A stretch of DNA of 64,000 nucleotides from Narcine bancroftii (Eukaryota): the NCBI RefSeq assembly GCF_036971445.1, contig NC_091473.1, positions 253,208,001 through 253,272,000 on the forward strand, in the 5' to 3' direction. The translations under genes were made by a program, and so were the position numbers. A model generated the notes under the pieces. The model searched no databases and was not told where the DNA came from. It worked only from the letters and a program-made list of their open reading frames with translations. Below, one piece after another: positions 3,796 through 64,000 of this stretch. Numbering within the stretch: the first letter of the stretch is position 1; every line of letters begins with the position of its first letter.

Positions 3796-3936
3796 GATGA
3801 AATTTCTGCCGAGAAGGAGAACTCCATGTTGCAACAGAATTCAGGTCTGCCGAACAACAAAAATAGTGAAGAACCAATGATTGACAATCCGTATCTAAGG
3901 CCGGTGAAAAAGCCCAAAGTCCGGAGGAAAAAGTGA
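3796..3936 (+). CDS. TAF8: TAF8 terminal coding exon
   Basis: Polypyrimidine-cag acceptor, phase 0 matching the previous exon; DEISAEKENSMLQQNSGLPNNKNSEEPMIDNPYLRPVKKPKVRRKK*, the TAF8 C-terminal NLS motif IDNPYLRPVKKPK. Confidence 0.95.
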   Translation, partial: DEISAEKENSMLQQNSGLPNNKNSEEPMIDNPYLRPVKKPKVRRKK

Positions 3937-4619: not shown

Positions 4620-5510
4620 GGAGAATGTTCAGAATAACCACAGGGACTGCTCTCTTTGTGACTCCCTTGTCCACTCCCCCTTCCCCACCTATCGTCCCCT
4701 TGGCACCTACCCCTCTGACTGCTTGAGATGCTCCCACTTGCGCCCATGCCTCCTCACTACCATTCGAGGCCCCAAACGGACCTTCCACGTGAAGCATCAC
4801 TTCACCTGTGAATCCACAGGACTCATCTACTGCATCCAGTGCTCCCATTGTGGTCTCTACATGGGAGAAACGTCGTGCAGATGAGATCGCTTCATTGAGC
4901 ACCTTGGCTCTGTCTGCCACAAGAGCGTAGATCTTCTCCCAGTGGCCACCTACTTCAATTCCCCACCCCATTCTCTTGCTGATGTGTCTATCCATGGTCT
5001 CATGCACTGCCAGACTCAGACCACTTGCAAATTGGAGGAACAACACGTCGACATCCGTCTGGGCCCCCTCCAACTGAATGGCATTAACATTGACTTCTCC
5101 GGTTTGCGTTAATCACCCCCCCACACCCTGCCCACTCATTTCTTTCCCTCCCCCCAACTCTTTTTACACGACATGATAAATTCTCACTTCCTCCCTTATG
5201 AGGAGCCCTCAGTGGCACAAGGACAGCTTCTTCTCCACTACCATTAGATTCCTGAATGATCAATGAATCGCAGACACTGCCTTACTTTGACTTGTTATGC
5301 ACTACATTTATTGATTGTTGCAAGGTGGTCTACATGAACGTTTGCCCTGTAATGCTGACGCAAAACAATGAATTCTACTTCTGATATCCAATTAACACCT
5401 ATTGTTGGTTTGGACTCCTCCCCCAGCCAGCACTGCCTCTATTCTGTGATTTCCTGTTTTATGCTTATTTTTTGCTCATTCATTGAAGGGCTCAGGCTTG
5501 AAATGTTGGC
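4620..5510 (+). mobile_element. Penelope-like element 3' fragment (GIY-YIG endonuclease + tail), interrupted by a LINE piece at ~5199-5383
   Basis: Degenerate GPKRTFHVKHHFTCESTGLIYCIQCSHCGLYMGET = PLE GIY-YIG motif; tail ends in hammerhead-like TGAAGGGCTCAGGCTTGAAATGTTGG. Confidence 0.8.
5307..5312 (-). terminator. Candidate poly(A) signal of Myb/SANT copy A
   Basis: TTTATT on + (AATAAA on -), ~127 nt past the stop; retained in copy B at 19647-19652. Confidence 0.55.
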
Positions 5511-5884
5511 GGGGGTTTGGGGCTGTGGAGTGGGAGCAGGGTGCTGTGGTACAGGAGCTGGCATGAGTGCAATCAGGTCCCGCAGAAGTGAGGTCTGATT
5601 CTGCATCTCATACTGAATGTCTCGGAACATGTTGGCGAACACATTCATTTGATCTGCCCGCTCCCGTCTATCGGCCTCCCGCGCCGCCATCTCCACCTCC
5701 CGCGCTGCCATCTCTGCCTCCTGCACCTCTCTCCTCAGCTGCTCTTCATGGACCCTCTGCCTTTCGAATCGAAGGCGATCCCTCTTCTCATCCTCACGGT
5801 GCATTGCCAGTAACAAGTCCTTTATTTCCTTCGTCACCAGCTGGGCTTTTGTCGGTTTCTTTCTTTTCTGCCGCGACAGGCATC
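5439..5884 (-). CDS. Myb/SANT-like gene copy A, exon 2 (basic NLS + coiled coil + Pro-rich tail)
   Basis: Acceptor TTCTCTAG|GA; the 106-nt GT-AG intron joins in frame (phase 1); RQKRKK NLS-like motif and E/R-rich coiled coil; spliced ORF 966 nt = 321 aa. Confidence 0.82.
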
Positions 5885-5990
5885 CTAGAGAACAATAGAC
5901 CACAAGCAACATTGGCGAGACTGCTCTTCATGGGCAAACACGCTCACACAGGAAAAAAAAGGTTAACCACAAACAAAACTAAGTCTTTAC

Positions 5991-6510
5991 CTGGCCGACT
6001 GTAAGACACAGATTCACTGTTTTTAATGCTGGCGTCCGTCTCCATGCCGCTCGGGACGCCGGCATCAGAACAGCTGCTACAGGAGGGAGACACAGCTGTG
6101 ATGGTCTCAGGGGGAGCTTCATCCTGGGGAGCGGGTCCCTGGGGAACTGGGTCCTGGGGTGCTGGGCATTGGGGAGCTGGGTCCTCCATGTCACTCGGAA
6201 GATCAAGCAGGCTCGTGGTGCGGCTTGCTCCCCAAATCGAATAGCACAGATCGAAATGTGGCCAGTCCAGGCGTCCTCTACCGCTCCTGCCATTATGGTC
6301 ATTGACCTCGTTGAATTTTCTTCTCAGGCTCTTCAACTTGCTTATCACCTGCGCCTTGTCCCGAACAAAGCCACGGTCTCGAAGCTGTTGAGCCAGTCTT
6401 TCAAAAATTGGTCCATCCTTCACCGTGCCAGTTATGTATCGGTTTATCTCATCAGCAGCTCGGAGGATAAGGAGTTCCTGGACCTCCTTATACCCCCAAT
6501 TTGCAGACAT
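5991..6510 (-). CDS. Myb/SANT-like (trihelix, Myb_DNA-bind_4 type) gene copy A, exon 1
   Basis: ATG at 6510 (aagATG); MSANWGYKEVQELLILRA...IFERLAQQLRDRGFVRDKAQVISKLKSLRRKF...WPHFDLCYSIWG has the W..E...L / W(F)..A..L...GF.R...Q...K.K.L...F / W.F pattern of Harbinger/MSANTD domains; minus-strand donor CCAG|GTAAAG at 5990. Upstream in-frame ATGs at 6576 and 6594 are possible alternatives. Confidence 0.85.
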
Positions 6511-6539
6511 CTTGAGGAACAGGTGAACTGCAGCTTTTG

Positions 6540-6966
6540 AAATCCTCCCCGGTGGGTCGCACACTAAAGACGTCATGAAAACGTCACATCCCATTCCCGC
6601 CCTGGTCCCGGGCCGCCGCCTCGCCCCTTTTTTACACAGCGTCTGCAGGCTTCCGCCTTTCACTCCGCTCGGCTGCCAATCATGGGCGGGGCTTCACACG
6701 CCAATCAGAGGTCGGGCCGGAAGTGAGTGGGCGGGAGGTTCTGCTGGTGTGAGAGGCGCCATCATGGCGACCAGGTGGCGGCTGCCGGCAACCGATTGAT
6801 GGTTTCCCCTCCTGTTCTCCTCCCCCCCCCCCCAACACCCCCCGATCAGGGTGGTCGCTGTGGACGGACGTTAATGGACGTGAGTGGCGGGCGGGGAGGG
6901 GGGTGGGGGAGGCCTGTGGGCGCGGAGACGGCCGCTTGCAAAATGGAGGACGTGGTGTAGGCCTCG
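6540..6966. promoter_or_regulatory. CpG-island bidirectional promoter, distal copy
   Basis: CpG-rich; CCAAT 6676 and 6701, GC box GGGCGGGG 6684, ETS/GABP CCGGAAGT 6717, inverted YY1-type CGCCATCATGGCG 6757, CAAAATGG ~6939; + strand donor GAC|GTGAGT at 6880. Confidence 0.75.
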
Positions 6967-6972
6967 AGTCCT

Positions 6973-8049
6973 CGGGGGGTGGGGGTTCCGTGGGGGGTGG
7001 GGGTTCCGTGGGGGGGGGGGGTCGGGGGTTCCGTGGGGGGGGGGGGTCGGGGGTTCCGTGGGGGGGGGGTCGGGGGTTCCGTGGGGGGGGGGGTCGGGGG
7101 CTGCGTGGGGGGGTCGGGGGCTGCGTGGGGGGGGTCGGGGGCTGCGTGGGGGGGGGGGTCGGGGGCTGCGTGGGGGGGGGTCGGGGGCTGCGTGGGGGGG
7201 GGTCGGGGGCTGCGTGGGGGGGGTCGGGGGCTGCGTGGGGGGGGGTCGGGGGCTGCGTGGGGGGGTCGGGGGCTGCGTGGGGGGGGGTCGGGGGCTGCGT
7301 GGGGGGGGTCGGGGGCTGCGTGGGGGGGGTCGGGGGCTGCGTGGGGGGGGGGTCGGGGGCTGCGGGGGGGGGTCGGGGGCTGCGTGGGGGGGGTCGGGGG
7401 CTGCGTGGGGGGGGGTCGGGGGCTGCGTGGGGGGGGTCGGGGGCTGCGTGGGGGGGGTCGGGGGCTGCGTGGGGGGGGTCGGGGGCTGCGTGGGGGGGGT
7501 CGGGGGCTGCGTGGGGGGGGGTCGGGGGCTGCGTGGGGGGGGTCGGGGGCTGCGTGGGGGGGGTCGGGGGCTGCGTGGGGGGGGTCGGGGGCTGCGTGGG
7601 GGGGGGTCGGGGGCTGCGTGGGGGGGGTCGGGGGCTGCGTGGGGGCGGGGTCGGGGGCTGCGTGGGGGGGGTCGGGGGCTGCGTGGGGGGGGTCGGGGGC
7701 TGCGTGGGGGGGGTCGGGGGCTGCGTGGGGGGGGGTCGGGGGCTGCGTGGGGGGGGGTCGGGGGCTGCGTGGGGGGGGGTCGGGGGCTGCGTGGGGGGGG
7801 TCGGGGGCTGCGTGGGGCGGGGTCGGGGCCTGCGTGGGGGGGGTCGGGGGCTGCGTGGGGGGGGGGTCGGGGGCTGCGTGGGGGGGGGTCGGGGGCTGCG
7901 TGGGGGGGGGTCGGGGGCTGCATGGGGGGGGGTCGGGGGCTGCGTGGGGGGGTCGGGGGCTGCGTGGGGGGGGGTCGGGGGCTGCGTGGGGGGGTCGGGG
8001 GCTGCGTGGGGGGGGGTCGGGGGCTGCGTGGGGGGGGGTCGGGGGCTGC
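6973..8049 (+). repeat. G-rich minisatellite, unit ~GGGGGCTGCGT(G7-11)TC, roughly 50 copies
   Basis: Direct reading; the first few units carry TTCCGT instead of CTGCGT; G-run length varies. Confidence 0.97.
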
Positions 8050-9215
8050 AGCATCGAGTTTGAAATTCGCGTCAAAAATTCTTTTAAGAAGTACTTCCCT
8101 CTGAATGTCACTTGAATATGACATGGGTATCACAGCTGAAACGGATTGTACTTCGCCTACAGCAGCTGTTTGAATAAAGTTGTATTTGAATAAAATGGTG
8201 TCGCCCAGGATGAAGATCCGGCCGATGCTTCTGGGGCGACTCTGCCCATTAAGAGTCTTTATTAGTATATTAGTAAGGCTCTATCTGTAATGGTGGGGGG
8301 GGGAGGTTAATTACGTTGGCAACACGATTAGCTTAGCAATTAGCGCAATCCTGTTAGTGACTGGGGCTCAGACTGGAATTTAAATTTTGTAGGATATGGG
8401 AATTAACTGATTAAAGTGAACTTTATATAATTAAGGGATACAATAGTTTTTTCTAATTTCTTTACGTTTTACAGTGTCTTGTCTTTTAAACTCTTAATGC
8501 AGGTGTATTAGTTAGGCCTTGTGAGAGAGTGCTTCAGGCAACTGGAAAATTCACATATCCGGCATCTGTAATTCCTGATGATGCTGGATAACGTGGATTT
8601 TACTGTACCCAGGTGGAAAGGGATCTGGGAATTCTCGTGCAGGATCGCCTGAAGGTAAACGTGCAGGTTCAGTTGGTGGAGAAGGCAAATGCAATGAAGA
8701 AAGGAAGATGATTCTGGGCATGAAAGGGTTATCATGTGAGGTACTTGTTGGAATTTAGGAGAATGAGGAGAAATTCATTGAAATATTTTGAATGTTGAAA
8801 ATATGGACCGGGTCGATGTATAAAAGTTGTTTCCCACGGTGGGAGAGACCAGGACAAGCGGGTACAGCTTCAGGGTGGAAGGCTGTCTTAGAGACGCGGA
8901 GGAATTTCTTCAACCAGAGGATGGTGAATTTGAAATTTGTTGCAACAGGGGGTTGTGAAGGCCAGTCATTGGGTGCATTTAAGGCAGAGATTGATAGGTT
9001 TGTGATTAACCATGGCATTGAAGATCAAAGCGTATCATGGATTTCCTCACCTTCAGACTACAAGCTGAAGATGGGTAAGAAATTCTCCACAATCTCCATC
9101 AGTGCTGGAGCATCACAGGGTTGTGTTCTTATCCCCCTGCTCTACTCACTTTATACCTATGACTGGGTGTAACAACAACTGCTTTGGACTCAATATCACC
9201 AAAACTCAGGAGCTG

Positions 9216-10054
9216 TGTTATGAACCACACGTAACGAGAAGCAATAGGTAATGAACCAAACAGTCTCTAATTTTAAAACATTAATTTTATTTCTCACTCT
9301 TAATCTATCCTTAACACTAAGTCTATCCTCAGCTATGTGCGGGTGTACTTGTGTGGGCATGTGTGAGATAGACTCAAACCATTACAAAATTTAGAAAGTT
9401 ACTTCAAAGTTCAGTCTTTCAAATTCAGTGTTGAAGCGTAGGTCTTTGAAATTTGATGCCCAAAATTAATGTTGAACTGATAGAAGACTGCAGTTGTGGT
9501 GGTTACAGACTCACAAATTCTCCATCTACATGAACTGTGTCATAACACTCCTGATCCTTTTGTAGGCAAGACTCATACTGGGCGGCCTCCACGAAGCTTC
9601 CAAGACCCTGGCACCAGTCTCTCCAAGTGACTTCACTGCTACTCATTTAAAATGAAGCCATCTCTCCAAGTGGCCTCCACTGTTAGTCACAATCAAAATG
9701 AAGCCAGTTGCTTCCCAAAAAGATCCTCCTGGCACAGGTCAATCCACTAAAATGGCCCAGTCATTCCCAGAGCTGGCTTTCCTCTGAATTTCACAAAAAT
9801 GGCTGGCCACAAGAGCTGCTTCAAAAAGCTGCTTTCTCTTCAGCATCAGAATGGTTCTCCCTTACAAAATCACAATGTCTTTGGAAATGTATTGAATTCT
9901 GGAGCAGACGGACAAACCTTCCCTCAGTTCTAACTATCGCTGGGCTGTGACATGTGCTTGTGTGAAATGTTAATTGTTAACTGTCCATTCAGTCCCTCCT
10001 GTCTATATTATTCCTTACAGTGATCATCCCATTTTACTAAATGAGCTTGTAATA
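9216..10054 (-). mobile_element. Solo LTR-like insertion in a Rex/Babar LINE
   Basis: TGTTA...TAATA termini with 4-bp TSD GCTG (9212-9215, 10055-10058) splitting the LINE motif AAGGAGCTGATTGTTGAC. Confidence 0.65.
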
Positions 10055-11085
10055 GCTGATTGTTGACTACAGGAAAGAAAAGTCAGGTATACAATCCAGT
10101 GATCTTTGGGGCATCAGAGGTAGAGAGGGGAGTTCTTGGGAATCTCTATCTCGGAGGATCTTTCCAGGACCAAGGGCATCATGAAGAAAGCACGTCAACT
10201 CCTCTCGTTCCTCAGGAGTTTGCGGAGGTTTGATATGACACCAGAAACCCTGGCAAATTTCCTCAGTTTGGTGAAAGTGTTTTGACCCGCTGCATCATGG
10301 TCAGGTATGGAAGCACCAATACCCCTGTGTAAATTTTACATTTTTAAATTTAAATTGATTTTTAAAAATGTAGACATCTAGCATGGAAACAGGCCATTTT
10401 GGACTATGAGCCCATGCAGCCCAGCCCAATTTACACCCAATTAACCTACCTTTCCCCCAAACGTTACATTTTGAATGCCGGAACCCTTGGGGAAAACCCA
10501 AATAGAGACGGACAATGTACAAACTCCTTACAGGGAGTGCAGGATTTGAACCCTGGTCCTGATTACTGGTGCTGTAAAGCGATCCATGCCATCCCCCAAA
10601 AAGCCCTCCAAAAGGTAGTGGACACAAGCCAAGTGATCACAGGCAAAACCCTCCCCATTATTGAACGCGTCTTCAGGGAGTGCTGCCATCAGAGAGCGGC
10701 AGCAGTCATCAAGGATCCTCACCACCAGCACACGCTCTGTTCTCACTGCTGCCATCAGGAAAGAGGTATCGGTGCCACAAGACTCGCCCCACCGGGTTCA
10801 GGAACAGCTGCTGCCCCTCCACCACCAGACTCCTCAACGAAAAACTCAATCTGATTCATTTAAGGGCTCTGACTTTGCAGATTATTGATTTTTGAAGATT
10901 TATTTTTTGTGTTGCCCATTTGGCTTGCACTGCCTTCTTTTTACTTTTCTTTTGTAGGCATCTTCTTTTCTTGAGTACAGCTTTTTGCACAACCAATCAG
11001 TGGTAATTCTGCCTGGCCCACAGATAAAAAGAATCTCAGGGTTGGATGTGATGTCATGTATGTATTCTGGCAATAAATCTGAACT
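10055..11085 (+). mobile_element. Rex1/Babar-type LINE 3' fragment (with V-SINE inside)
   Basis: LRSLRRF, LQKVVDTSQVITG, KDPHH..HALFSLLPSGKRYR motifs; 5' part at ~9020-9215. Confidence 0.8.
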
Positions 11086-12179
11086 GGCACATGAGAAAAC
11101 ATTGTAGCCTCACCTCCACAGCTAATAAACACAGGGTGAGAATAGTGACGTGATAACTTCAGAAATTTTACCTTTCAATTTGTTTGTTAGGAGTAATTTT
11201 CCGTGGAAATGGGACAGTGGGTGGTACAACTGGTGGAGCAGGTGCTTAAATGTTCCAGTGGCCAATATACAGGAGCTCCAATGCTGTCCTGCGTATGTGG
11301 TCACGCGCACCAAGATACAGTGAAGAGGTTTGTATGGTGTGCTATCCAGGAAAGTCAATCTGTGTAGGTATTGCTGAAAAGTAAAACAGAAGTGCAGAGA
11401 AAATTGTTGCAGAGGGAAGTACAGTTAAAACAGTGCTCGGGACGTGATGAGGGGTTTATGAGATCAATGAAGCACGAAAGTCTCTGATTGTAGTAAAAAC
11501 ACAAATGACGGAGGAACTCGTTGAGTCCCACAGCATCCATAGGAGGTAAGGATCAGTGATTGACTTTTATCAATGAGAGGTCTGAGCAAGGTTTGAACGT
11601 TCTCTCTGTGACTGTGTGGCATTCCTCCCACAGCCTGAAAGCATGAGAGGCAATAGCTTGATTGTCCACTGTAAGTTGCCTCTAACGTGTCAGTGAGGCT
11701 TAGAATGGGGGGGGGGGGGGGGGGAGGAGGGAGATGGAAAGTGATGGGAATATGTGGAGAGAAAAATTTAGGATTCATGCAGGCTTTGTGGGTTCTTGAT
11801 GGATGGCAAAGGTGTGACAAAGGGTCAGTGTCTGTGCTTATGTGGTTGAATAACACTGAAACTGACATTGTGAATCTGACCAGGGCTGACTCTACTGTGT
11901 GAGTTAAACAGCACTACATATGCAGTTGCATTATTGCTGGGTGCTGTTGAATAGACCAGGATATTCTTGATGGAACTCCTGTAGAAGGTTGACATAAAGG
12001 TAGCTAGTACCCATGCATGCTTTAGTCTTCTCAGGAAATGCAGTCGCTGTTGCGCCTTCCTGATAAGTTCAGATGTAGGAGTGGGCAAAATCATTGTTTA
12101 AAATTGTCAATGTTGATCCATAGAATCTGAAAGCATGGAAAGAGAGCATTCGCCCTCTGGGTCATTACTGACCATGTAC

Positions 12180-15100
12180 AACACCTGTTTTAACTTGTTC
12201 CAAAAAGTTTGCTAATTCCAACCAGAAAGGATTTACCTTGGAACAGGACCAAGTTGAATGTGTAAAAAAAAAAAAAAAAAAAAAAGTTCCTATTTCTTCA
12301 CCACATCTGAAACATTGATCTGATGAATCTGATTTAAATCTATGCAATTTTTGTTTTTAAAGGAAATTATACTGAACTAGTCTACATCTTACGTTAATAG
12401 TGTTAGTCATACAGTCTCAACAAAGGTCCGCCCATCTTCGCTCATCAAATGTAACATTTAAATCCAATTCCCACTTCTATCTAGACTCATGAACTCCACC
12501 TTGAGGAGTTTCTGATTGTAGTAAAGAATATACTGCACAAGTCAATTTCTTAACAATTCCTCTTCTAATAAAAATTTCTACTTACTACAGGCAGATAGCA
12601 ACATGGTTGGTCCTGTCTTATCTCTCAAATATGGTCTCGACTGAAAGTAACAAAAGAGTATTTTGAAATACTCCATATTTATTTTCATTTGTTAAAATGA
12701 CATTAATTGACCTCTTTCATAACAGTCTTCAATATTTATAACTCCCTTACAAAACCAAATATCTAAAAATTGATTGAACAAGGTATAAGGGAATTTTGAA
12801 TCCAAAGCATCTTAGGTGATAAATAACCTCTTGCACCAATTTCACCATTTACTTCATTCCACATATTAATCAGATGTTTCAACAATGGTGTTTATTTTCC
12901 TCCAAACATCAAAATTGTGTCCCATTTATATATACACATTCTTCTGATTTTCTCTCCAACTTGTTTCTATTGTAACCTTGAATTTTCTTCTCTTTTGAAA
13001 AAGATGGAAGAAATTTCATTTGCGCTGCATTATATTAATTTTTGATATTAAGAAGTTGTTAACCTCCTAATTCATACATCTACGTTAACTTCTTGATGAC
13101 TCTTAACATTTTACCCTTCCAGAGGAATTTCCTTACATATTTATTCAATTCTTGAAAAAAATTTATAGATAAATTAATCTATTTTTTAAAAAAAATCTCA
13201 ATTTTAAGTAATGGTAAGTAGTTCAATTTATATAAATTCTTCAAATCATTAACCGCACGAATCCCTAAATATTTAATAGCATCTTTTGGCTATTTAAACT
13301 GAGTATCCATTTGGCATTGAGTATCATCTCCTTCCATTAGTAGCATAATTTCACTTTTATCTCAATTTATTTTGCATCCTAAAATTTTCCATGTTCTTCC
13401 AACTTAATATACAATTCTTGTAATTTCATGTTCAGTCAAATAGATAAAATGTCATCTGCATATCATCTTTCACTCTTCTTGACTAATTCTAAATCCCTTA
13501 ATTTCCAAATCACTACAATTGCTTCTGCAAGTGGTTTAATTGCTAAAATAAACAAAGCTAGAGACTGGGGACATCCTTGTCTTTTTGATTTTGCTAAATT
13601 GAATGGCGCAAATACCATTATTAACTACTTTAGCTTTAGGATCATTATACAATGTCTTAATTCAATTTTAAAAAAGTCAATCCAAATTTATTCAGCACCT
13701 TAAATAAAAAAATCCCATTCCAGTTAATCAAATGCTTTTAATGCATCTAGAGCCACTGCAATACTTAAATCTTCCCCTTTTTTGCTAGATGAATTATACT
13801 AAATCTGGCCACATTCTGAGCTGATTGTCTCCTTTTCACAAAACCTGTCTGATCCATATTTATTCATTTAAGTACCAATTCAGTAATTCTGTTTGCCAAA
13901 AAATTTGCGACAATTTTATAATGTACATTTAATAACAAAATGGGGCTATAAGATGAAGGCTTTAAAGGGACTTTTTTTGGTATCGCTGTAATTATTGTCA
14001 TCGAAAAAGTTTCTGGGAGAGTATGTTTCTGAACCCTGAGAGAGACTGCATGGATGGTCAGTGGCTCTGCTCGATCTATCATCTTTGGGTCCAACTGCCG
14101 GTTGAACGTGTAGAGGGTCACCAATATAGCATTCGCGCCACGAGGAATGTGGAAGGAAGAGACATATGAGGACTTGAAATTGAAGACTGATTTATTGCAC
14201 TGGCAGCTCTGCTTACATGCGCCCTTGGCGCCGATGTCAGGGCCCCACGTTATCGGAGCACCAACCACTGGTTGGCCGGCATTCCTGCCAGAGTTCCCTG
14301 TCTTCCTGCCATGTGGAGGTCACCTGGGATGACGGCCAGTGTCACCGCCCCCCCCCTCCCCCCCCCCCCCCTAGATTTGTGCAGTTGCCTTGTTCGTTGG
14401 CCATTTTACAGGCTGGTTTGTGTCTCCGTGCGTGGGCCGCTACATATACGTAAATATCAGTTAAATACATTTATAACAAATGGCATACTTTAATAAAATC
14501 TTTAAAAAATGGATAGTATCACAATAATCATAATTAAACCACATAAATCCACTTATAAAAAAGAAAAACCCTAAAACTAATACTAGTCTAACCCCTCCCA
14601 ATAAATCAAGGTTACAAGAAAAATAAATAGATCTGTTTTGATCTTCTGGTACAAAAACTTAAAGTTGCAGGGTAATGTAGCACAAATTTATAACCTTTAT
14701 CAAAAAGAGCTTTTGTAGCTGGATTAAATTCCTTCTGTTCAAAAAATATTCACTGAAGTCCAAATAAAATAGAATTCTATTTCCATCCAATTGAAGCAGG
14801 CCCTTCCGGTCTCTCGCCCCTCTTACAGCAAGACTTAAAACTTTCTCTCTGTCTTGATATTATAGAAATTTAATTAATACAGACGCGGCTTCTGATTTGG
14901 AGGAGCTTTTTTCTCTTAGAGGTCTATGAGCTCTTTCAATAGGATTTTCAAAATTTTGCTCTCCCAAATCTTATGCAATCCATTTTTGAAAAAAAAAATT
15001 GGTTCTGGACCATCTTTTCCTTGTGGAAAACTCACTATTCCTTCTGCTGAAGTTTTCAAATACATCCACTTTCTCTAAAAGCTTTTGGTTCACTGTGATT

Positions 15101-15940
15101 AAATTTGTGGCTGGGTACAGCGTCACATTCTCTACTCTTTTATATCTCAATATTTTCTTGACCTGGTCAAATTCTTTTCATTATTTTATCTGCTCAAGAC
15201 TCAGGTCAGGGAAGAACATCAGTCTTCCCCCTGGAATTCCACCAATCGCCCTGTATTCCTTGATTAGGTCATCGCTGCCCTTAGCACTATTTTCTGGTCC
15301 AAGCTATTAACAAACAGGATCAGAACTGGCCTCGGCCATTGATTTGGGTGAGATGGGGGCTGAATGTCTGATGGGCTGGTTAGGGGGGGCTCTAAATCTA
15401 TCGTTTCCCAACACAAGTCCTTCCTTCCTCACCCTCTTTCAGGCCCAATAGTCTAATGTTATTGTTCCGATTGTAGTTTTCTAGATAGTCTAACTTGTCT
15501 GTCAGCTGTTTTTGTTTTGACAACCTGTGAGTCAGCTGCGCTTTTTAATCTTTCTTGTCTATCTTTCCTTCCAGGACTCTGTCATGATTTGTCAGAGCTT
15601 CATTTGAAGTCCACAGGTTGAGCAGGCCCTCAGAGAGCTCTTTTAGTCTGGTGCCCAGTCGTTGCTCCAGACCTCCAATCTGGGTCACCAATGACTGCAC
15701 TGCTGCTAGAACATCTTGAACGGGCAAGCCCAATGTTGCAGGCTTCGTCCTCACGCCTTCAGCACTAGGCCTGCTAGCAGCGCGGGAGCCTGCAGGTCGC
15801 TAGCGTCGAGCGAGTTTCCGCCACTTCTAGCAGGTCCTGATCTTCTTTCACCTGCTTCTTGCAATTCCTGCCCATCTTACTTCAGTGTGGGTAAGTTTAA
15901 CCTGTAATTATTTTCCTTGTTTTAGAGGCTTTAAGACGGA
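12180..15940 (-). mobile_element. Degenerate L1/Tx1-clade LINE fragments (ORF2 and ORF1)
   Basis: CFRCGEEIGT..HSTWSCSKVNPFW zinc knuckle; IITAIPKK..PSSYSPILLLNVHYKIVANFLANR RT start; ALDA.KAFD motif; many stops. Confidence 0.8.
14030..14444 (-). mobile_element. Ty3/Gypsy 5' LTR + PBS + gag start, nested in L1
   Basis: On minus: TGTAGCGG start, AATAAA, then TTGGTGACCC PBS and M...IHAVSLR gag-like start. Confidence 0.6.
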
Positions 15941-16165
15941 AGCTGTCTGAGCATGTCCTTTCAGTATCACGTGACCCAATTGGGTATCTCTTTGACACTG
16001 AGAATAATCACCTCTAGTTCGAGGCATAATTTCACTTTTATCCCAATAACCAAAATCTGTTTCATATTCTTTTAATATTAAATATAATTTACGTAATGTT
16101 CCTTCTGGTCAACCTTAAGTATCAGAATCAGATCGTATGCAAATTGTTCTACTGCTAAAATAAAT

Positions 16166-17310
16166 CTTCTTTCTTTCTTCTTTGGCTTGGCTTCGCGGAC
16201 GAAGATTTATGGAGGGGGTAAAAAGTCCACGTCAGCTGCAGGCTCGTTTGTGGCTGACCAGTCCGATGCGGGACAGGCAGACACGATTGCAGCGGTTGCA
16301 AGGGAAAATTGGTTGGTTGGGGTTGGGTGTTGGGTTTTTCCTCCTTTGCCTTTTGTCAGTGAGGTGGGCTCTGCGGTCTTCTTCAAAGGAGGCTGCTGCC
16401 CGCCAAACTGTGAGGCGCCAAGATGCACGGTTTGAGGCGTTATCAGCCCACTGGCGGTGGTCAATGTGGCAGGCACCAAGAGATTTCTTTAGGCAGTCCT
16501 TGTACCTTTTCTTTGGTGCACCTCTGTCACGGTGGCCAGTGGAGAGCTCGCCATATAATACGATCTTGGGAAGGCGATGGTCCTCCATTCTGGAGACGTG
16601 ACCCATCCAGCGCAGCTGGATCTTCAGCAGCGTGGACTCGATGCTGTCGACCTCTGCCATCTCGAGTACCTCGACGTTAGGGGTGTGAGCGCTCCAATGG
16701 ATGTTGAGGATGGAGCGGAGACAACGCTGGTGGAAGCGTTCTAGGAGCCGTAGGTGGTGCCGGTAGAGGACCCATGATTCGGAGCCGAACAGGAGTGTGG
16801 GTATGACAACGGCTCTGTATACGCTTATCTTTGTGAGGTTTTTCAGTTGGTTGTTTTTCCAGACTCTTTTGTGTAGTCTTCCAAAGGCGCTATTTGCCTT
16901 GGCGAGTCTGTTGTCTATCTCATTGTCGATCCTTGCATCTGATGAAATGGTGCAGCCGAGATAGGTAAACTGGTTGACCGTTTGAGTTTTGTGTGCCCGA
17001 TGGAGATGTGGGGGGGCTGGTAGTCATGGTGGGGGAGCTGGCTGATGGAGGACCTCAGTTTTCTTCAGGCTGACTTCCAGGCCAAACATTTTGGCAGTTT
17101 CCGCAAAGCAGGACGTCAAGCGCTGAAGAGCTGGCTCTGAATGGGCAACTAAAGCGGCATCATCTGCAAAGAGTAGTTCACGGACAAGTTTCTCTTGTGT
17201 CTTGGTGTGAGCTTGCAGGCGCCTCAGATTGAAGAGACTGCCATCCGTGCGGTACCGGATGTAAACAGCGTCTTCATTGTTGGGGTCTTTCATGGCTTGG
17301 TTCAGCATCA
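16166..17310 (-). mobile_element. RTE-clade LINE, 5'-truncated, young copy
   Basis: ELLFADDAAL RT motif, QLRWMGHVSRMEDHRLPKIVLYGEL thumb, C-terminal CNRC..H zinc knuckle, (AAG/AAAG)n tail. Confidence 0.93.
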
Positions 17311-18139
17311 TAAAGCTGGAGATAATGGACACCCTTGCCTACTAGACTTGGAAAGGTGCATTTGTTACAACTTTGGGTTTTGGTCCATTATATAAAGCTT
17401 TCATCCAATTTGTAAATATTTGTCATCCTGCTGGGATCCTCCACTCACTCTGGATTGTCCATTATTGCAGTGTGATTCTGCATAACATTTTTCAGAGGTC
17501 ATTCTTATTTGGCCACATATGCTTGTCGATCTTCAAGGGGGTGGTGGGAGTTGCAAAGGCTGCACGGATTGTTGAGCAGCACATGCTGTGACCGGAGGGT
17601 TAAGCTTTTAAGATGATTTCTGAGCTTGACTGGGTTTTTAATCTCAATAATTGATTGAAATCTGCTGTGAGAAAGCTAAACTGTTTCCATCCAGGATTCG
17701 GCAAGACCTGTTGCAATGCAGTAATTTACAATAGCATTTTCCTTTGCGTCTCGGTCGTTCCCCTTCTCCTGCAACTGGACCAAGTTGCTCATTCCTCCCT
17801 TTTGTCTTCCACTCAATAAGTTCCAAAGTCGTCGCGTCTGTGATGCTCGTCTAGTCAGTAACTTCAAGACTGCCGTTTTTGTATTTAAAAACATCGTCTT
17901 CTAACACCCAGAATGTTGTGGTTCCTGTGGGGTATTTCTTGTAGCAGTTTGACTAATAACGTTCCTCGTCTTTTAACCTATCCATCATTAAAGCAGGCCG
18001 AAGTGAGGTGTGATATGTAGATGATATGATTTATGATATCATTAGTATACCTTGTGTAAAGGGTTTTTGTTCAACTCAATAAAAATATTTTAAAAAGTAA
18101 GTAAAGTGAGGTGCGGTTATCACTAGTAAATTCAAGATG

Positions 18140-18355
18140 CGGTATGGTTAGCACGATGCAATTACAGCGCTAGTGACTGGGGTTCGAATCCTGCGCTGTC
18201 TGTGAGGAGTTTGTATGTTCCGACCTGTGTCTGTGTGGGGTTTCCCTGGGTGCTTTGGTTTCCTACTACCCTTTAAAATGTAATGGGGTTGAAGGTTTAT
18301 TGGGCAGCACGGGCTCGAGGGTCAGAAGCGCTTGTTACCGTGCTGCAGGTCTAAA
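18140..18355 (+). mobile_element. tRNA-derived V-SINE (HE1-like), representative copy
   Basis: A/B-box head GGTTCGAATCC and V-domain GTCTGT.AGGAGTTTGTA.GTTCTCC...GGTTTCCT; further copies near 2663, 4485, 10370, 18500, 29800, 38507, 40306, 43295, 44100, 49660, 57450, 63050-63480. Confidence 0.8.
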
Positions 18356-19646
18356 TCAAAATTAAATCTGCAGAGCAGCAGTGAGTGCGACCATCTTTTA
18401 TCGCTTCAAGTAGGAGTGTCCGTTCCCGCCGAGATAGTTCTCACCTTTCCACTCCAGTCCTACCTGTATACATTATTCATAGAGTTAAAATTTTTTAAAA
18501 AGTTTTACATCTACAGCATGGTAACAGGCCCAATTAATCTACACCCCCCCCCCCCCCCCTTAACATTTTTTTTTGAATGGTGAGAGGAAACTGAAGTCCC
18601 CAAAAGAAACCCACGCAGACACAGGGAGAATGTACAAACTCCTTACAGGCTTGATTCAAACCCCAGTCCCTGTTGCTGTAACAGTGTTGCACTATCCCTT
18701 ACACGAACCGAGCCACCCCAGTCTGTTGGACTGCACAACTCCCACCTGCCCTTTCTTTCCTTCTCCCAGCCTTTTAATTCAGCTGCTTGCCTGCTTTTCC
18801 CCCCACACCTTGAAGAAGCACTTGAATCTCTTCCCTCCTCTGGACACTGCGAGACCGGCTGAGTTCCTCCAGCATTTTTCCTAAAATCACAGTTTCTTCA
18901 GACTTTAGTGTTTCAATCCCTCTGAGCTATTTTCCCACTCCTCCCTAAAAACAGGTGGCATTGACACACCTGATGTCTTCTTACTGAGGTGCCCAACCTC
19001 ACGCAACTACTTAGAGTGTGCAGGTGATGAAACTGGAGAAGGGTATGACGCATTATGAAACCTCCTTACCCTGGGTGTGAGGACGTTGTTTAGAGGAATC
19101 CTTCCAGCTTTTTAGCTTGGACAGTGATTACTTCTTAGCTTCCTAATACTTAGCAGTGGCATTGCAACCAGTTGGAGTGATTGTTGAAGAAATCTTATGA
19201 AGAAAGGCTTGACACTGTCACTAACATGATGGGCAGACAGACCATTTTAATATAGTATCTGTTCAGTGAGATATTTGGAATCAGGTTGTAGTCTTACCTG
19301 TAACAGTGGTTAGTGACGCATTTACTTCAAATTAGACAAAAGTATGATTTTAAAGACCAGAGGAATAGCAGCTCACCTTCCATCTGGGCATCCCTCTGAC
19401 CAGATGGCATTAACATTGATGTCACCAGTTTCTGTTAACCTCTTTCCTCCCCCCCACCCCCCCGCTTGACTTACTTCCCCCTTCCTCCAAGTCGCTCCCT
19501 TTTGCACAGACATGATAAATTCTCACCTCTTCCCTTATGAGGAGCCCTCAGTGGCACAAGGACAGCTTCTTCCCCACTGCCATTAGATTCCTGAATGATC
19601 AATGAATCGCAGACATTTGCCTTACTTTGACTTGTTATGCACTACA

Positions 19647-19652
19647 TTTATT
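19647..19652 (-). terminator. Candidate poly(A) signal of Myb/SANT copy B
   Basis: AATAAA on the minus strand at the position equivalent to copy A. Confidence 0.55.
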
Positions 19653-19775
19653 GATTGTTGCAAGATGGTCTACATGAACGTTTGCCCTGTAATGCTGACG
19701 CAAAACAATGAATTCTACTGATATCCAATTAACACCTATTGTTGGTCTGGACTCCTCGCCCAGCCAGCCCTGCCT

Positions 19776-20179
19776 CTATTCTGTGATTTCCTGTTTCATG
19801 CTTATTTTTTGCTCATTCATTGAAGGGCTCAGGCTCGAAATGTTGGCGGGGGTTTGGTGCTGTGGAGTGGGAGCTGGCATGAGTGCAATCAGGTCCCTCA
19901 AAAGTGAGGTCTGATTCTGCATCTCACACTGAATGTCTCTGAACATGTTAGCGAACACATTCATTTGATCTGCCCGCTCCCGTCTATCGGCCTCCCGCGC
20001 CGCCACTTCCACCTCCCGTGCCTCTCTCCTCAGCTGCTCTTCATGGGCCCTCTGCTGATCGAATCGAATGCGCTCCCTTTTCTCATCCTCACGGTGCATT
20101 GCCAGTAACAAGTCCTTTATTTCCTTCGTCACCAACTGAGCTTTTGTCAGTTTCTTCCTTTTCTGCCGCGACAGACATC
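19776..20179 (-). CDS. Myb/SANT-like gene copy B, exon 2
   Basis: Acceptor TTCTATAG|GA, 105-nt intron, in frame; spliced ORF 954 nt = 317 aa. Confidence 0.82.
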
Positions 20180-20284
20180 CTATAGAATAGACCAGAAGCA
20201 ACATTAGTGAGACTGCTCTTTGTGGGCAAACACGCTCACAAGAACACATGGAAAAAAAATGTTAACCACAAGAAAAGTTTTTAC

Positions 20285-20834
20285 CTGGCCGAATGGGAGG
20301 CACAGATTCAGTGTTTTTAATGCTGGCGTCTGTCTCTATGCCGCTTGGGACTCCGGCATCAGAACAGCTGCTACAGGAGGGAGATGCAGCTGTGATGGTC
20401 TCAGGGGTTGCTTCATCCTGTGGAGCTTCATCCTGGGGAGCGGGTCCCTGCGGAGCTGGGTCCTGGAGAGTGGGGCCTTGCAGAGTTGGGTCCTGGGGAG
20501 ATGGGTCCTCCATGTCACTCGGGAGATCAAGCGGGCTTGTAGTCCGGCTTGCTCCCCAAATTGAATAGCACAGATCGAAATATGGCCAGTCCAAGCGTCC
20601 TCTACCGTTCCTGTCATTATGGTCGTTGACCTGATGGAATTTTTTTCTCAGGCTCTTCAATTTGGTTATCACCTGCCCCTTGCCACGAACAAAGCCACGG
20701 TCTCGAAGCTGTTGAGCCAGTCTTTCGAATAATGGTCCATCCTTCACCGTGCCAGTTATGTATCGGTTTATCTCATCAGCAGCTCGGAGGATAAGGAGTT
20801 CCTGGACCTCCTTATACCCCCAATTTGCAGACAT
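20285..20834 (-). CDS. Myb/SANT-like gene copy B, exon 1
   Basis: Paralog of 5991-6510; ATG 20834, donor CCAG|GTAAAA at 20284; intact ORF. Confidence 0.85.
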
Positions 20835-20863
20835 CTTGAGGAACAGGTGAACTGCAGCTTTTG

Positions 20864-21290
20864 AAATCCTCCCCGGTGGGTCGCACACTAAAGACGTCAT
20901 GAAAACGTCACATCCCATTCCCGCCCTGGTCCCGGGCCGCCGCCTCGCCCCTTTTTTACACAGCGTCTGCAGGCTTCCGCCTTTCACTCCGCTCGGCTGC
21001 CAATCATGGGCGGGGCTTCACACGCCAATCAGAGGTCGGGCCGGAAGTGAGTGGGCGGGAGGTTCTGCTGGTGTGAGAGGCGCCATCATGGCGACCAGGT
21101 GGCGGCTGCCGGCAACCGATTGATGGTTTCCCCTCCTGTTCTCCTCCCCCCCCCCCCAACACCCCCCGATCAGGGTGGTCGCTGTGGACGGACGTTAATG
21201 GACGTGAGTGGCGGGCGGGGAGGGGGGTGGGGGAGGCCTGTGGGCGCGGAGACGGCCGCTTGCAAAATGGAGGACGTGGTGTAGGCCTCG
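20864..21290. promoter_or_regulatory. CpG-island bidirectional promoter, proximal copy; probable MDM4 promoter
   Basis: Identical to 6540-6966 (offset 14324); the nearest CpG island upstream of MDM4 coding exon 2. Confidence 0.75.
21045..21203 (+). other. MDM4: Probable non-coding exon 1 of MDM4 (start approximate)
   Basis: Begins at the CCGGAAGT motif and ends at consensus donor GTGAGT (21204); MDM4 has a non-coding exon 1 in vertebrates and the exon at 33141 has an acceptor upstream of its ATG. No transcript evidence. Confidence 0.6.
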
Positions 21291-21420
21291 GGGGGGGGGT
21301 CGGGGGCTGCGTGGGGGGGGGGTCGGGGGCTGCGGGGAGGCCATGGCCGCTGGGGGTGGGAACAAAGACGCGAGTCTGGAGGTGGGGTGGGGGTGGGATC
21401 GGGGTCCCAGACGGGAGTGG

Positions 21421-21929
21421 CTCCCCCCCCTCCCTCCCCCTTCCCCCCTCCCTCCCCCTTCCCCCCTCCCTCCCCCTTCCCCCCTCCCTCCCCCTTCCCC
21501 CCTCCCTCCCCCTTCCCCCCTCCCTCCCCCTTCCCCCCTCCCTCCCCCTTCCCCCCTCCCTCCCCCTTCCCCCCTCCCTCCCCCTTCCCCCCTCCCTCCC
21601 CCTTCCCCCCTCCCTCCCCCTTCCCCCCTCCCTCCCCCTTCCCCCTCCCTCCCCCTTCCCCCCTCCCTCCCCCTTCCCCCCTCCCTCCCCCTTCCCCCCT
21701 CCCTCCCCCTTCCCCCCTCCCTCCCCCTTCCCCCCTCCCTCCCCCTTCCCCCCTCCCTCCCCCTTCCCCCCTCCCTCCCCCTTCCCCCCTCCCTCCCCCT
21801 TCCCCCCTCCCTCCCCCTTCCCCCCTCCCTCCCCCTTCCCCCCTCCCTCCCCCTTCCCCCCTCCCTCCCCCTTCCCCCTCCTCCCCCTTCCCCCCTCCCT
21901 CCCCCTTCCCCCCTCCCTCCCCCTTCCCC
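21421..21929 (+). repeat. Pure polypyrimidine 18-bp satellite (CCCCCCTCCCTCCCCCTT)n
   Basis: ~500 bp with only C/T on the + strand. Confidence 0.97.
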
Positions 21930-31400: not shown

Positions 31401-33156
31401 TTAATTTTCTTTTTAATCTATTTTTATTGATTTGAAAGAGGAATATGACATCATATATTGAACAAAAAAAACCGTCAATCTTAGTGTTAAAACTCAGAAC
31501 ATGAATCTCATTAGCAAATTGTACATTATAATGTACACAGTAAATCACGTAAAAAAGAAGTTAATTTGGAAGAACTTTGGTTCATATCTATCATTGGAAC
31601 AAGTTTCTGGTATGATAAGTACTTGTGTAAAGAAAAAGGAAAAAGCAGAAGTTAAGAAAGATAGTAGAGCAAGAAAAGAAAGGAAAAGGAAAGAAATCCA
31701 CCCCATACTAATCTCACTCCTCCCAGCAAAAGAGTAAGCAAGAAATCGAGTTCCGGCCTCCACGCAACGAGCAAGTAACCCACAGAGCACTCAAGCCTAT
31801 GTCATCTAATTCTGATAGTAATCCATGAGTGGACCCCATAATGTATCAAATTTCATCTAATATTCTCCAAGCTCAAACAATGTACCCAATCCATATGAGT
31901 CGTTGGTGAGCGATCTTTCCATTTAATCAAAATTGGTCATCAATAAAAGTAAGAGCTCCAACTCTTCTTTGAGTTAGATTCAAATAAATATTTTCCTGTT
32001 GACAATAACCAAACAAAACAATGCAAGGGCAAGGATCTCAATTGACCCTGAGAATCTCTGCTAAAATTGTTCCCCAAAATCATTCAGTTTTGGACACTCC
32101 CAAAACAGATTTAAGTTGGATTTATTTTTTGGCACAAACGTGGGCTGAAGGACCTGCTCTTACAGCTGTGATGTTCTTATTTTAAAACAAAATATATCAT
32201 GACTTCAGATCTATGCAGACTATCTTGTTTTCAGGGTTCTGCTGATGCTGAGCAATGAGAAGAGATAATGGGCGGGGGGGGTGGGGGGGTCCTTTTTCCT
32301 GTGACAGTCCTAGCCATGTTTACTACCCTCTTTAATCCTAACTTTCTCATGGCATCTACATTCTCAACCAGTGAGATGGAAATCTAGCCTTATTATCCAT
32401 CCCTATTCATTGGTGAACAGTAACTGTTTAAAAAAAGTGTAAAACTCTCGGATGGACCACTTTCAAATTGTCAAGAATTTCATGATTTCAGAATTGGACC
32501 ATGATTCCGGGGAGAGGGTATAAGTAAAGGATCCATTATTGTCACTTAATGGACTACATGTAGAATGTAACATGCATAAAGTTCTTCAACTTTGTCCAGT
32601 GAGGAACGAACTTGTGACCTCTGGTTATAAGGATTTTAAAGTTGTTCAGTTTGCTGAAATGGGATTGGATCCCCATCATAATGCTTATTTCAATTAGTTT
32701 TCTCGTGCACCTCGGAATTGAGAATGAGTTCATTCCAGTTTGTGGATTCTGAATGAGGGAACCATACATGGGATGGGGGGGGGGTGTTTGATTAGGCAGG
32801 TGGGTGGTAATGTGTGAAGTGGTACCCCCTTTTGCAATTTATATTAGGCTTCAAATGTGTGACTTCAAGGTTCTCAATACCATCTTGGATGCTTCTACAT
32901 TTTGAGGAATTGGGGGAAGAGGTTGTGCAGGAGCCAGTGGTAATGTTACATTTCATCAAGGAAGCTTGAATCTTTTTATCGTAAAACAACATACAACTTG
33001 TGCATTTTTTGTGATTCCAAAGTTTGCTGGTTTTGTCACGTACAATATCATTATCTATTTTGGAAATCTAAATGTGTTAAGTATTCGTTGATGGTTAACA
33101 ATCAGTTTACTAATTTCACCTCTTCTTTCCCCAAAACCAGGCAAAATCCTATCAAC

Positions 33157-56575
<23,419 letters not shown>

Positions 56576-63486: not shown

Positions 63487-63686
63487 NNNNNNNNNNNNNN
63501 NNNNNNNNNNNNNNNNNNNNNNNNNNNNNNNNNNNNNNNNNNNNNNNNNNNNNNNNNNNNNNNNNNNNNNNNNNNNNNNNNNNNNNNNNNNNNNNNNNNN
63601 NNNNNNNNNNNNNNNNNNNNNNNNNNNNNNNNNNNNNNNNNNNNNNNNNNNNNNNNNNNNNNNNNNNNNNNNNNNNNNNNNNNNNN
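63487..63686. other. Assembly gap (200 N)
   Basis: Run of N of round length, typical of a scaffold join. Confidence 1.
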
Positions 63687-64000
63687 TTCTCAATGCAGAG
63701 GAACATTTGAGCCTGCCAATGCTGGAATCCAGAGCAAAGTACAAACTGCTGGGTGAAAATGTACATAAGTGTTTTGGAGAAACTTGGTGACGCACCATCC
63801 ATAGGAAGAAAAACACAGTTGATGTTCCTATGAAAGGGTTCAGGCTTGAAACTGTCTTTTACTTCACATGGATGCTGTATGACCTGATTTTCTCCAGCAC
63901 CTTTGTGTTCAAGACCCTGGCACCTGCAGATTTTCTTGTTTACCTCAGAATCAGGATTTATTGTCATGAACAAGTCATGAAATTCAGTATTTTGTGGCAG
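63687..64000 (+). repeat. Exact copy of 22935-23248 (MDM4 intron 1)
   Basis: 314 bp identical by eye, beginning directly after the 200-N gap. Confidence 0.92.

What the first reader, a model, noticed from the sequence alone, without database searches (positions are those of the whole stretch)
5439..21290. Duplicated, apparently domesticated Harbinger-type Myb/SANT genes placed head-to-head on the MDM4 promoter
Seen: two intact two-exon minus-strand ORFs (321 and 317 aa) with GT-AG introns, a trihelix Myb/SANT domain, NLS-like RQKRKK and a coiled coil, each starting ~170-200 bp from a CCAAT/GC-box/ETS/YY1 CpG island. All length differences between the copies are in frame (+30 nt in exon 1; -21 and -21 nt in exon 2), and no DDE transposase or clear TIR pair is present. 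Known: PIF/Harbinger transposons encode such a Myb-like protein, and NAIF1 and MSANTD1-4 are domesticated examples. Inference: a lineage-specific transposon-derived transcription factor has captured the antisense output of the MDM4 promoter, so it would be co-regulated with a key p53 inhibitor. I know of no such gene between TAF8 and MDM4 in other vertebrates.
Basis: partly seen in the sequence, partly recalled or inferred. Interest (0 to 1): 0.88.

Follow-up and report, generated by a model that had tools for sequence, protein, structure and literature searches.

The report
Tamed transposon gene beside ray MDM4
In an electric ray, a DNA-binding gene from an old, broken-down jumping element survives intact in two tandem copies facing away from the likely MDM4 promoter and shows signs of selection, so it is likely a young host gene, though any link to p53 control is untested.

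Summary
Two intact two-exon trihelix/Myb ORFs (321 and 317 aa; RefSeq names them Narcine bancroftii XP_069798290.1 and 291.1) each lie 166 bp from a duplicated CCAAT/GC/ETS island, between TAF8 and MDM4. Their parent is a decayed ~3.4-kb Harbinger family in the same genome (convergent DDE_Tnp_4 transposase, TIRs, 3-bp TSD). At this locus the left end, the transposase and the native C-terminus are gone. None of 38 aligned sibling copies is intact (mean 3.2 stops and 5.3 frameshifts), and none of 40 lies at a CpG island. Copy A against copy B shows purifying selection: omega 0.42, and 34 amino-acid differences against 46.5 expected (p=0.0002). Domestication is therefore likely. Not shown: spliced transcripts, the MDM4 start site, orthologs in other rays (none found), and any effect on MDM4 or p53. 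Related Harbinger Myb copies sit head-to-head with GPI (intact) and MED28 (frameshifted), so this looks like general capture of housekeeping promoters, a route already published for mammals, not a p53-specific event. Verdict: a new, young member of a known kind.

The parts
5035..7001 (.). Duplicated unit, copy A (Myb gene, promoter, presumed first exon of MDM4)
   Evidence: 88% identical to 19360-21322
19360..21322 (.). Duplicated unit, copy B, adjoining MDM4 intron 1
5991..6510 (-). Copy A coding exon 1 (ATG 6510; in-frame upstream ATGs at 6576 and 6594)
   Evidence: relatives begin at this Met; the 6594 ATG is AAG in 29 of 38 family copies
6247..6504 (-). Copy A trihelix Myb/SANT domain
   Evidence: PF13837 E 1.8e-10; weak match to GT-1 structure 2jmw
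5885..5990 (-). Copy A intron, 106 nt, GT..AG, inherited from the transposon
   Evidence: GT in 28 and AG in 27 of 38 family copies
5439..5884 (-). Copy A coding exon 2: RQKRKK, long predicted helix, last ~23 codons not from the parent element, stop
20285..20834 (-). Copy B coding exon 1
20571..20828 (-). Copy B trihelix Myb/SANT domain
   Evidence: PF13837 E 3.5e-10
20180..20284 (-). Copy B intron, 105 nt, GT..AG
19776..20179 (-). Copy B coding exon 2
5515..6640 (-). Part of copy A that is homologous to the dispersed Harbinger family (in B about 19850-20964)
6630..6639 (-). Retained subterminal repeat of the element (TGTGTAAAA on the minus strand); predicted binding site of the Myb protein
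   Evidence: the motif recurs at about five places near both ends of the family element; the binding role is inferred from Harbinger3_DR as described in PMC9710019
20954..20963 (-). Same retained subterminal repeat in copy B, ~40 bp from the first CCAAT box
6676..6770 (.). Host promoter core, duplicate copy (CCAAT x2, GC box, ETS, YY1-like)
   Evidence: no family homology
21000..21094 (.). Host promoter core, presumed MDM4 promoter
   Evidence: inferred
6409..6966 (.). 558-bp block identical to 20733-21290 (recent gene conversion likely; assembly smoothing not excluded)
21204..21209 (+). GTGAGT, candidate donor ending MDM4 non-coding exon 1 (copy at 6880)
   Evidence: untested
5307..5312 (-). 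AATAAA 130 nt past the stop of A (B: 19647-19652)
6974..8049 (.). G-rich 21-nt minisatellite, ~48 units in A, 2 units in B (21290-21334)
33141..33234 (+). MDM4 first coding exon (ATG 33157), predicted
   Evidence: next exons at 33542 and 38839-38973 (SWIB, best PDB hits Mdm4)
56000..56575 (+). MDM4 last exon (RanBP zinc finger, RING)
   Evidence: one paralog elsewhere at 54%
3886..3936 (+). End of TAF8 coding sequence, tail-to-tail with copy A
   Evidence: recalled motif; upstream TAF8 exons confirmed

Best explanation
This is the Myb/trihelix gene of an old Harbinger transposon that lost its left end and transposase next to the likely MDM4 CpG-island promoter, is likely transcribed from that promoter's antisense side, and has likely been kept by selection as a young host gene, then duplicated in tandem with the promoter. 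Shown: the origin, the truncation, the duplication, two intact ORFs among dead siblings, and the deficit of amino-acid change. Inferred: broad expression and splicing through the transposon's own intron; nuclear entry through RQKRKK; DNA binding by the trihelix, with the long helix as a partner or dimer surface. The most likely target is the element's repeated TGTGTAAAA motif, which survives once in each promoter copy and in at least hundreds of dead elements. The protein would then act as a sequence-specific chromatin or transcription regulator and could feed back on its own shared promoter (my odds for that last step are about 1 in 4).
For: Parent family: ~3.4 kb with sharp ends, convergent DDE_Tnp_4 in 4 of 8 ORF pieces scanned, 3-bp flanks identical in 5 of 20 two-ended copies against 0-1 of 20 at eight other offsets, 169 exact left-end 17-mers against 0 for the control. 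Intact ORFs: 0 of 38 aligned siblings (2 of 40 left out for large insertions); each has at least 4 disablements, and only 21% of their coding indels are in frame. A vs B: GY94 omega 0.42, p=0.0015 against 1 and 0.041 against the siblings' 0.73; context-preserving shuffle 34 against 46.5+-3.5 amino-acid differences, p=0.0002, with both exons significant. A vs family majority in the Myb domain: omega 0.16 against 0.53, p=0.0001. CpG counts in the exons are 2-3 times the sibling median, and above the sibling maximum. 0 of 40 siblings lie near an island. Exact A-type and B-type exon 2 contigs both occur in run X4, so the pair is not an assembly artefact. Human MDM4's promoter carries functional Ets sites (PMC6478121).
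Against: No spliced junction or MDM4 exon 1-2 link was displayed. The A-B difference in the 3' UTR is only 3.5%, below pN (5.2%), and synonymous divergence (15%) exceeds the intron's (9%), so rates are uneven, probably from conversion. Against the family majority, three dead copies score about as low as A and B (z -3.8 to -4.3 against -4.2 and -4.0), and outside the Myb domain A shows no deficit (p=0.33). If stop codons are ignored altogether, 0.4-3 frameshift-free survivors are expected among 600-5000 copies. The Myb domain differs from the family majority at 21 of 100 residues, so its specificity may have moved. RefSeq also annotates broken Harbinger copies, so annotation is no proof. No ortholog could be examined.
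Confidence: 0.72

Rival explanations
1. Passive survivor: the insertion is shielded from methylation by the CpG island and transcribed as antisense noise, and the ORF stayed open by luck among many hundreds of copies; the protein does nothing useful.
For: 37 of 120 stops in siblings are CGA>TGA, which an unmethylated site avoids. With frameshifts alone counted, a survivor is not improbable genome-wide. The 3' UTR is as conserved as the coding sequence. PMC2777200 argues that islands preserve inserted DNA.
Against: The locus has diverged more than its siblings, not less. The A-B amino-acid deficit survives a CpG-aware shuffle. With all disablements and both post-duplication branches counted, 0.005-0.04 survivors are expected. 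The MED28-adjacent copy is frameshifted despite its island.
Confidence: 0.13
2. Transposon repressor: the solo Myb was kept because it binds Harbinger ends, or soaks up transposase, without allowing excision; it has no role in host gene control and may now be relaxing.
For: The transposase is lost while the DNA-binding domain is the most constrained part. The genome had several Harbinger waves, including a younger family with ~85% pairwise identity. A second family also left a solo intact Myb, at GPI.
Against: The cognate family is long dead (median 12-14% from the majority), yet selection continued after the duplication. The younger family has different ends and lacks the repeated motif there, and no intact transposase was seen among its 16 loci examined.
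Confidence: 0.1
3. Dedicated MDM4/p53 regulator: the gene was selected because it tunes MDM4 output, in cis through the retained site or the extra promoter copy.
For: The retained motif lies ~40 bp from the CCAAT box. The promoter block is identical between the copies. The duplicated unit includes a presumed extra MDM4 first exon.
Against: The same head-to-head arrangement occurs at GPI and MED28. No clean p53 site was found near the island. There are no expression data.
Confidence: 0.05

Closest known systems
Myb-like (ORF1) protein of PIF/Harbinger transposons, e.g. zebrafish Harbinger3_DR
   Same: Trihelix domain, ~300-400 aa; the parent element has a convergent DDE_Tnp_4 transposase, TIRs, a 3-bp TSD and repeated subterminal motifs (PMC9710019 passages).
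   Different: No transposase, no TIRs, a replaced C-terminus, single locus, fused to a host promoter.
NAIF1 and MSANTD1-4 (domesticated Harbinger Myb-like genes; PMC9392472)
   Same: Solo Myb-like gene at a fixed place, under purifying selection.
   Different: Those arose ~430-500 Mya and are shared across jawed vertebrates or sarcopterygians; this one is young enough to align at DNA level to its dead siblings, was found in one species only, and is under weaker constraint (omega ~0.4).
CpG-island 'hijack' by transposon genes (Kalitsis and Saffery 2009, PMC2777200)
   Same: Antisense head-to-head insertion within 1 kb of an island promoter, with the island extending over the inserted gene (23 of 63 human co-opted genes in that paper).
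   Different: Described there for mammals; here in a cartilaginous fish, with the promoter itself duplicated, and with parallel Harbinger cases at GPI and MED28.
Lampris incognitus XP_056133775.1 and other teleost PF13837 proteins
   Same: Closest outside relative: 69% identical to copy A and 77% to the family majority over 259 codons, 86% in the Myb domain.
   Different: Its genomic setting was not examined; it is closer to the transposon than to this gene, which suggests a horizontally shared element, not an ortholog.

Membership tests
Harbinger/PIF transposon (parent family) | DDE transposase of DDE_Tnp_4 type plus a second Myb/trihelix ORF | tested here: met
   PF13359 over the cut-off in 4 of 8 ORF pieces from dispersed copies; Myb ORF on the opposite strand
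Harbinger/PIF transposon (parent family) | TIRs and 3-bp target duplication | tested here: met
   ~16-bp imperfect TIR; 3-bp flanks match in 5 of 20 against 0-1 of 20 at other offsets; AT-rich, not strictly TAA/TTA
Harbinger/PIF transposon (the two window copies as mobile elements) | Transposase, TIR pair, near-identical dispersed copies | tested here: not met
   Homology only ~5515-6640; best outside DNA match 78% over the gene body among 40 scored of 5030 candidates
Domesticated Harbinger Myb-like gene (NAIF1/MSANTD kind) | Intact trihelix ORF without transposon ends | tested here: met
Domesticated Harbinger Myb-like gene (NAIF1/MSANTD kind) | Purifying selection | tested here: met
   A vs B omega 0.42, shuffle p=0.0002; caveats given in the Against line
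Domesticated Harbinger Myb-like gene (NAIF1/MSANTD kind) | Orthologs at a conserved position in other species | tested here: inconclusive
   No ortholog in protein collections; of 20 representative hits looked up, the three cartilaginous-fish names were all this species; other ray genomes could not be searched
Domesticated Harbinger Myb-like gene (NAIF1/MSANTD kind) | Spliced expression | tested here: inconclusive
   Four runs of one study, RNA only by guess, contigs only; junction rows swamped by repeats
Ortholog of NAIF1 or MSANTD1-4 | Descent from the ancient jawed-vertebrate domestications | tested here: not met
   Nests among recent genomic copies at ~12% intron divergence; no named MSANTD or NAIF1 protein among the hits
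Sequence-specific transcription factor | DNA binding and effect on transcription | not testable with these tools
   Only domain homology and a low-confidence model (mean pLDDT 59.8)
Bidirectional gene pair with MDM4 | Divergent start sites within 1 kb on one CpG island | tested here: inconclusive
   Geometry fits; start sites not mapped

The most novel reading that the evidence does not exclude
Electric rays have repeatedly turned Harbinger Myb genes into host regulators by landing them on housekeeping promoters (MDM4 twice, GPI once, a failed try at MED28), and the MDM4 pair binds a transposon motif left in the shared promoter, wiring a new lineage-specific feedback loop onto the p53 inhibitor and onto hundreds of dispersed element ends.
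Probability: 0.15. Interest if true: 0.82.

Novelty: new member of a known kind. Interest (0 to 1): 0.52.

Why it matters
The known vertebrate Harbinger-derived Myb genes are ~430-500 My old and their parent elements are unreadable. Here the parent family is still in the genome, so each step can be read directly (truncation, promoter capture, new C-terminus, repeat growth in the linker, duplication, homogenised promoter) and a binding motif can be predicted and tested. Intact (MDM4, GPI) and broken (MED28) captures in one genome give a natural comparison for the published promoter-hijack model outside mammals. The genome also holds several large Harbinger families, whereas a 2022 survey found none in elephant shark and asked for other cartilaginous fishes to be checked (PMC9179366). 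A role in p53 control would raise the interest much further, but nothing here shows one.

Tried and rejected
RNA: the look-up of sequencing runs listed four runs of one study, RNA only by guess, and no holder on record as RNA. The single read-laying run on 8100-21290 at 85% likeness was dominated by repeats; 955 joints were not shown and the 20179/20285 junction was not among the 15 shown. Listed contigs on the Myb exons or promoter had depth 19-59 against 2.6-19 for listed low-copy non-exonic ones, but the tool says depth cannot rank genes and the runs were chosen with this gene, so I give this no weight. Ortholog searches: three homolog searches, one profile search with 20 of its 150 hits named, and the Atlas gave teleost, unnamed and same-species proteins only; the 'longer' length class was not searched. 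Assembly artefact: considered because 63687-104159 re-copies 22935-63484 at 99.3-99.7% behind a 200-N gap; rejected for A/B because they differ by 3.5-9.4% outside the identical block and both types occur in run X4. Derivation from a diverged subfamily: no sibling shares more than 19 of 87 derived states in the 5' part; not excluded, so I rely on A vs B. MDM2 in place of MDM4: the RING scores higher to MDM2 structures, but the p53-binding exon scores higher to Mdm4, a second paralog exists on C23, and the exon plan fits MDM4 (recalled). The fold search found nothing at E<=0.001. A p53-site scan gave one loose match at 9345. The selection test on the GPI copy was not significant against its siblings (0.53 against 0.63; 15 of 20 relatives aligned; the linker alignment is noisy). 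Earlier findings of the scan: none returned. Literature: seven searches listed no paper on this locus; the library lacks most subscription papers. No complex prediction was run. No supplements were read.
Full report
Observation. The window is G000:C11:253208001-253272000. Two minus-strand genes splice cleanly: A (6510-5991, 5884-5439; 321 aa) and B (20834-20285, 20179-19776; 317 aa), with GT..AG introns of 106 and 105 nt. RefSeq holds the same proteins with a 28-residue longer start, named uncharacterized proteins of Narcine bancroftii. Both carry Myb_DNA-bind_4 over the Pfam cut-off. A model from a 7-row alignment is poor overall (pLDDT 59.8) but shows the trihelix and one ~95-residue helix, with only a weak match to plant GT-1. 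The duplicated unit is 5035-7001 against 19360-21322 at 88%. It holds the gene, a CCAAT/GC/ETS/YY1-like core 166-260 bp upstream of the ATG, and a candidate donor (motif names recalled). TAF8 ends at ~3936 on the plus strand. MDM4 runs on the plus strand, with coding exons from 33157 to 56575. I saw no other promoter-like CpG island between B and MDM4's first coding exon, so B's island is the presumed MDM4 promoter. That is an inference.

Parent element. The genome has many relatives: 3717 protein candidates (150 scored, best outside 70%) and DNA matches of 65-78% over the gene body (40 of 5030 candidates scored). Forty fetched loci define a ~3.4-kb element with sharp ends, a convergent DDE_Tnp_4 transposase (4 of 8 pieces scanned), a ~16-bp imperfect TIR, and 3-bp flanks that match in 5 of 20 two-ended copies against 0-1 at other offsets. 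An exact 17-mer of the left end occurs 169 times against 0 for the control; it was intact in about a quarter of my left ends, so at least several hundred copies exist. This is a Harbinger/PIF family as defined in PMC9392472 and PMC9710019 (passages read). The window copies keep only ~5515-6640. The first ~160 nt including the TIR are gone, the junction with host DNA falls at the third TGTGTAAAA repeat, and about 46 native C-terminal codons and the whole transposase are replaced by about 23 new codons and a host 3' end. The intron and its splice sites come from the element.

Selection. A and B nest in the star-like burst of dead copies, with the same intron divergence (12-13% against a median of 11.6%). 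Of 38 aligned siblings (2 of 40 left out for large insertions) none is intact; they average 3.2 stops and 5.3 frameshifts, with a minimum of 4 disablements, and 21% of their coding indels are in frame. A and B have none. Counting all disablements and both branches since the duplication, 0.005-0.04 survivors are expected among 600-5000 copies; ignoring stops entirely, 0.4-3. So ORF survival alone is strong evidence but not final. Against the column majority, omega is 0.38 (A) and 0.40 (B) against 0.73 for the siblings (p=0.002 and 0.003), driven by the Myb domain; three siblings from a diverged subfamily score about as low, and A shows no deficit outside the Myb domain. The cleaner test is A against B, which needs no yardstick: omega 0.42 (p=0.0015 against 1; 0.041 against 0.73), and 34 amino-acid differences against 46.5+-3.5 in a shuffle that keeps base and CpG context (p=0.0002; exon 1 p=0.004, exon 2 p=0.017). 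Against this, the 3' UTR differs by only 3.5% and 558 bp over the promoter and first 34 codons are identical, so rates are uneven, likely from gene conversion.

Promoter capture. None of 40 dispersed siblings has an island within 1.1 kb upstream. The exons of A hold 23 and 19 CpGs against sibling medians of 8 and 7 and maxima of 13 and 11, and upstream substitutions run AT-to-GC 23:6 against 297:523 in the siblings, as expected if the island spread over the insert. PMC2777200 (abstract and section 6 read) describes this route for mammalian transposon-derived genes. PMC6478121 (passages) reports Ets sites in the human MDM4 promoter and calls its P1 promoter constitutive. The route recurs here. 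XP_069758116.1, from a second Harbinger family, is intact, lacks a transposase and faces away from GPI exon 1; 0 of 15 aligned relatives are intact, but its omega is not below theirs. XP_069778921.1, from another family, faces away from MED28 exon 1 but is frameshifted in exon 2. XP_069772010.1 is a prematurely stopped copy of a younger family with no island. So three of the four RefSeq-annotated loci that I examined are head-to-head with host promoters; an island alone does not keep the frame; and annotation alone proves nothing.

Reality and expression. An exact A-type and an exact B-type exon 2 contig both occur in run X4, and all four runs hold more of A's words (0.55-0.72) than B could supply (0.39), so both copies are real. 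The runs are RNA only by guess and the splice junction was not displayed, so expression is not shown.

Range. No ortholog appeared among 5.8 billion proteins in three searches covering 30-611 aa. Of 20 profile hits looked up, those with names were teleosts or this species. The opah protein is 77% identical to the family majority and 69% to A, which hints at horizontal sharing of the element; this was not tested against host genes. PMC9179366 (passages) found no Harbinger in elephant shark and asked for other cartilaginous fishes to be examined.

Mechanism. Shown: origin, truncation, fusion to host promoter DNA, duplication, and constraint on the protein. Inferred: antisense transcription from a constitutive island; nuclear import through RQKRKK; DNA binding by the trihelix. 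The Harbinger3_DR Myb protein binds a 9-bp subterminal motif (PMC9710019), and here a 9-bp motif recurs near both ends of the element and survives once in each promoter copy. It is the natural candidate site, giving possible autoregulation and an effect on MDM4, but the domain has 21 changes in 100 residues. I put domestication at about 0.72-0.8 and a real effect on MDM4 at about 0.15-0.25.

Verdict. A real and probably functional young domestication, of a known kind and by a known route, not found in seven literature searches (PMC5543598 passages, added nothing). The p53 angle is adjacency only. Interest 0.52.

Noticed in passing
window 63487-64000 and L018-L021 (window-scale 63687-104159): After a 200-N gap the assembly repeats 22935-63484 at 99.3-99.7%, giving a second MDM4 body without the promoter; likely an uncollapsed haplotype.
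   Followed up: partly
L075:2570-3621 (G000:C22:95452570-95453621, +): A second intact solo Harbinger Myb gene (XP_069758116.1, 315 aa) from another dead family, head-to-head with GPI exon 1, left TIR-like end kept, no transposase; 0 of 15 aligned relatives intact, omega not significantly lower.
   Followed up: partly
L130:451-2260 (G000:C8:131361348, +): Harbinger Myb copy (XP_069778921.1) ~0.9 kb head-to-head with MED28 exon 1, frameshifted in exon 2.
   Followed up: partly
L087-L106: A younger Harbinger family (~85% pairwise identity, different ends); L104 gives an apparently full-length Myb ORF by trial splice; no intact transposase seen among 16 loci.
   Followed up: partly
family majority vs P0003 (Lampris incognitus): 77% amino-acid identity (86% in the Myb domain) between a ray transposon family and a teleost protein; possible horizontal transfer.
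   Followed up: no
window 6409-6966 and 20733-21290: 558 bp identical between the paralogs, including a C run, while the flanks differ by up to 9%; recent conversion or assembly smoothing.
   Followed up: partly
window 6974-8049 and 21425-21929: A G-rich 21-nt minisatellite (~48 units) just after the duplicate promoter, and an 18-nt C/T array (28 units) at the start of presumed MDM4 intron 1.
   Followed up: no
window 16172-17338 (-): LINE-like fragment with an open 263-aa frame, 99.6% identical to a copy ~15 kb upstream of the window, so recently mobile; no Pfam hit for that frame, and the LINE label is recalled.
   Followed up: no
window 21088-21203: Three upstream ATGs in the presumed MDM4 first exon, one opening an 11-codon uORF.
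   Followed up: no
P0010, P0012, P0013: Teleost proteins with 5-8 tandem copies of this Myb domain (herring, tarpon, Centroberyx).
   Followed up: no
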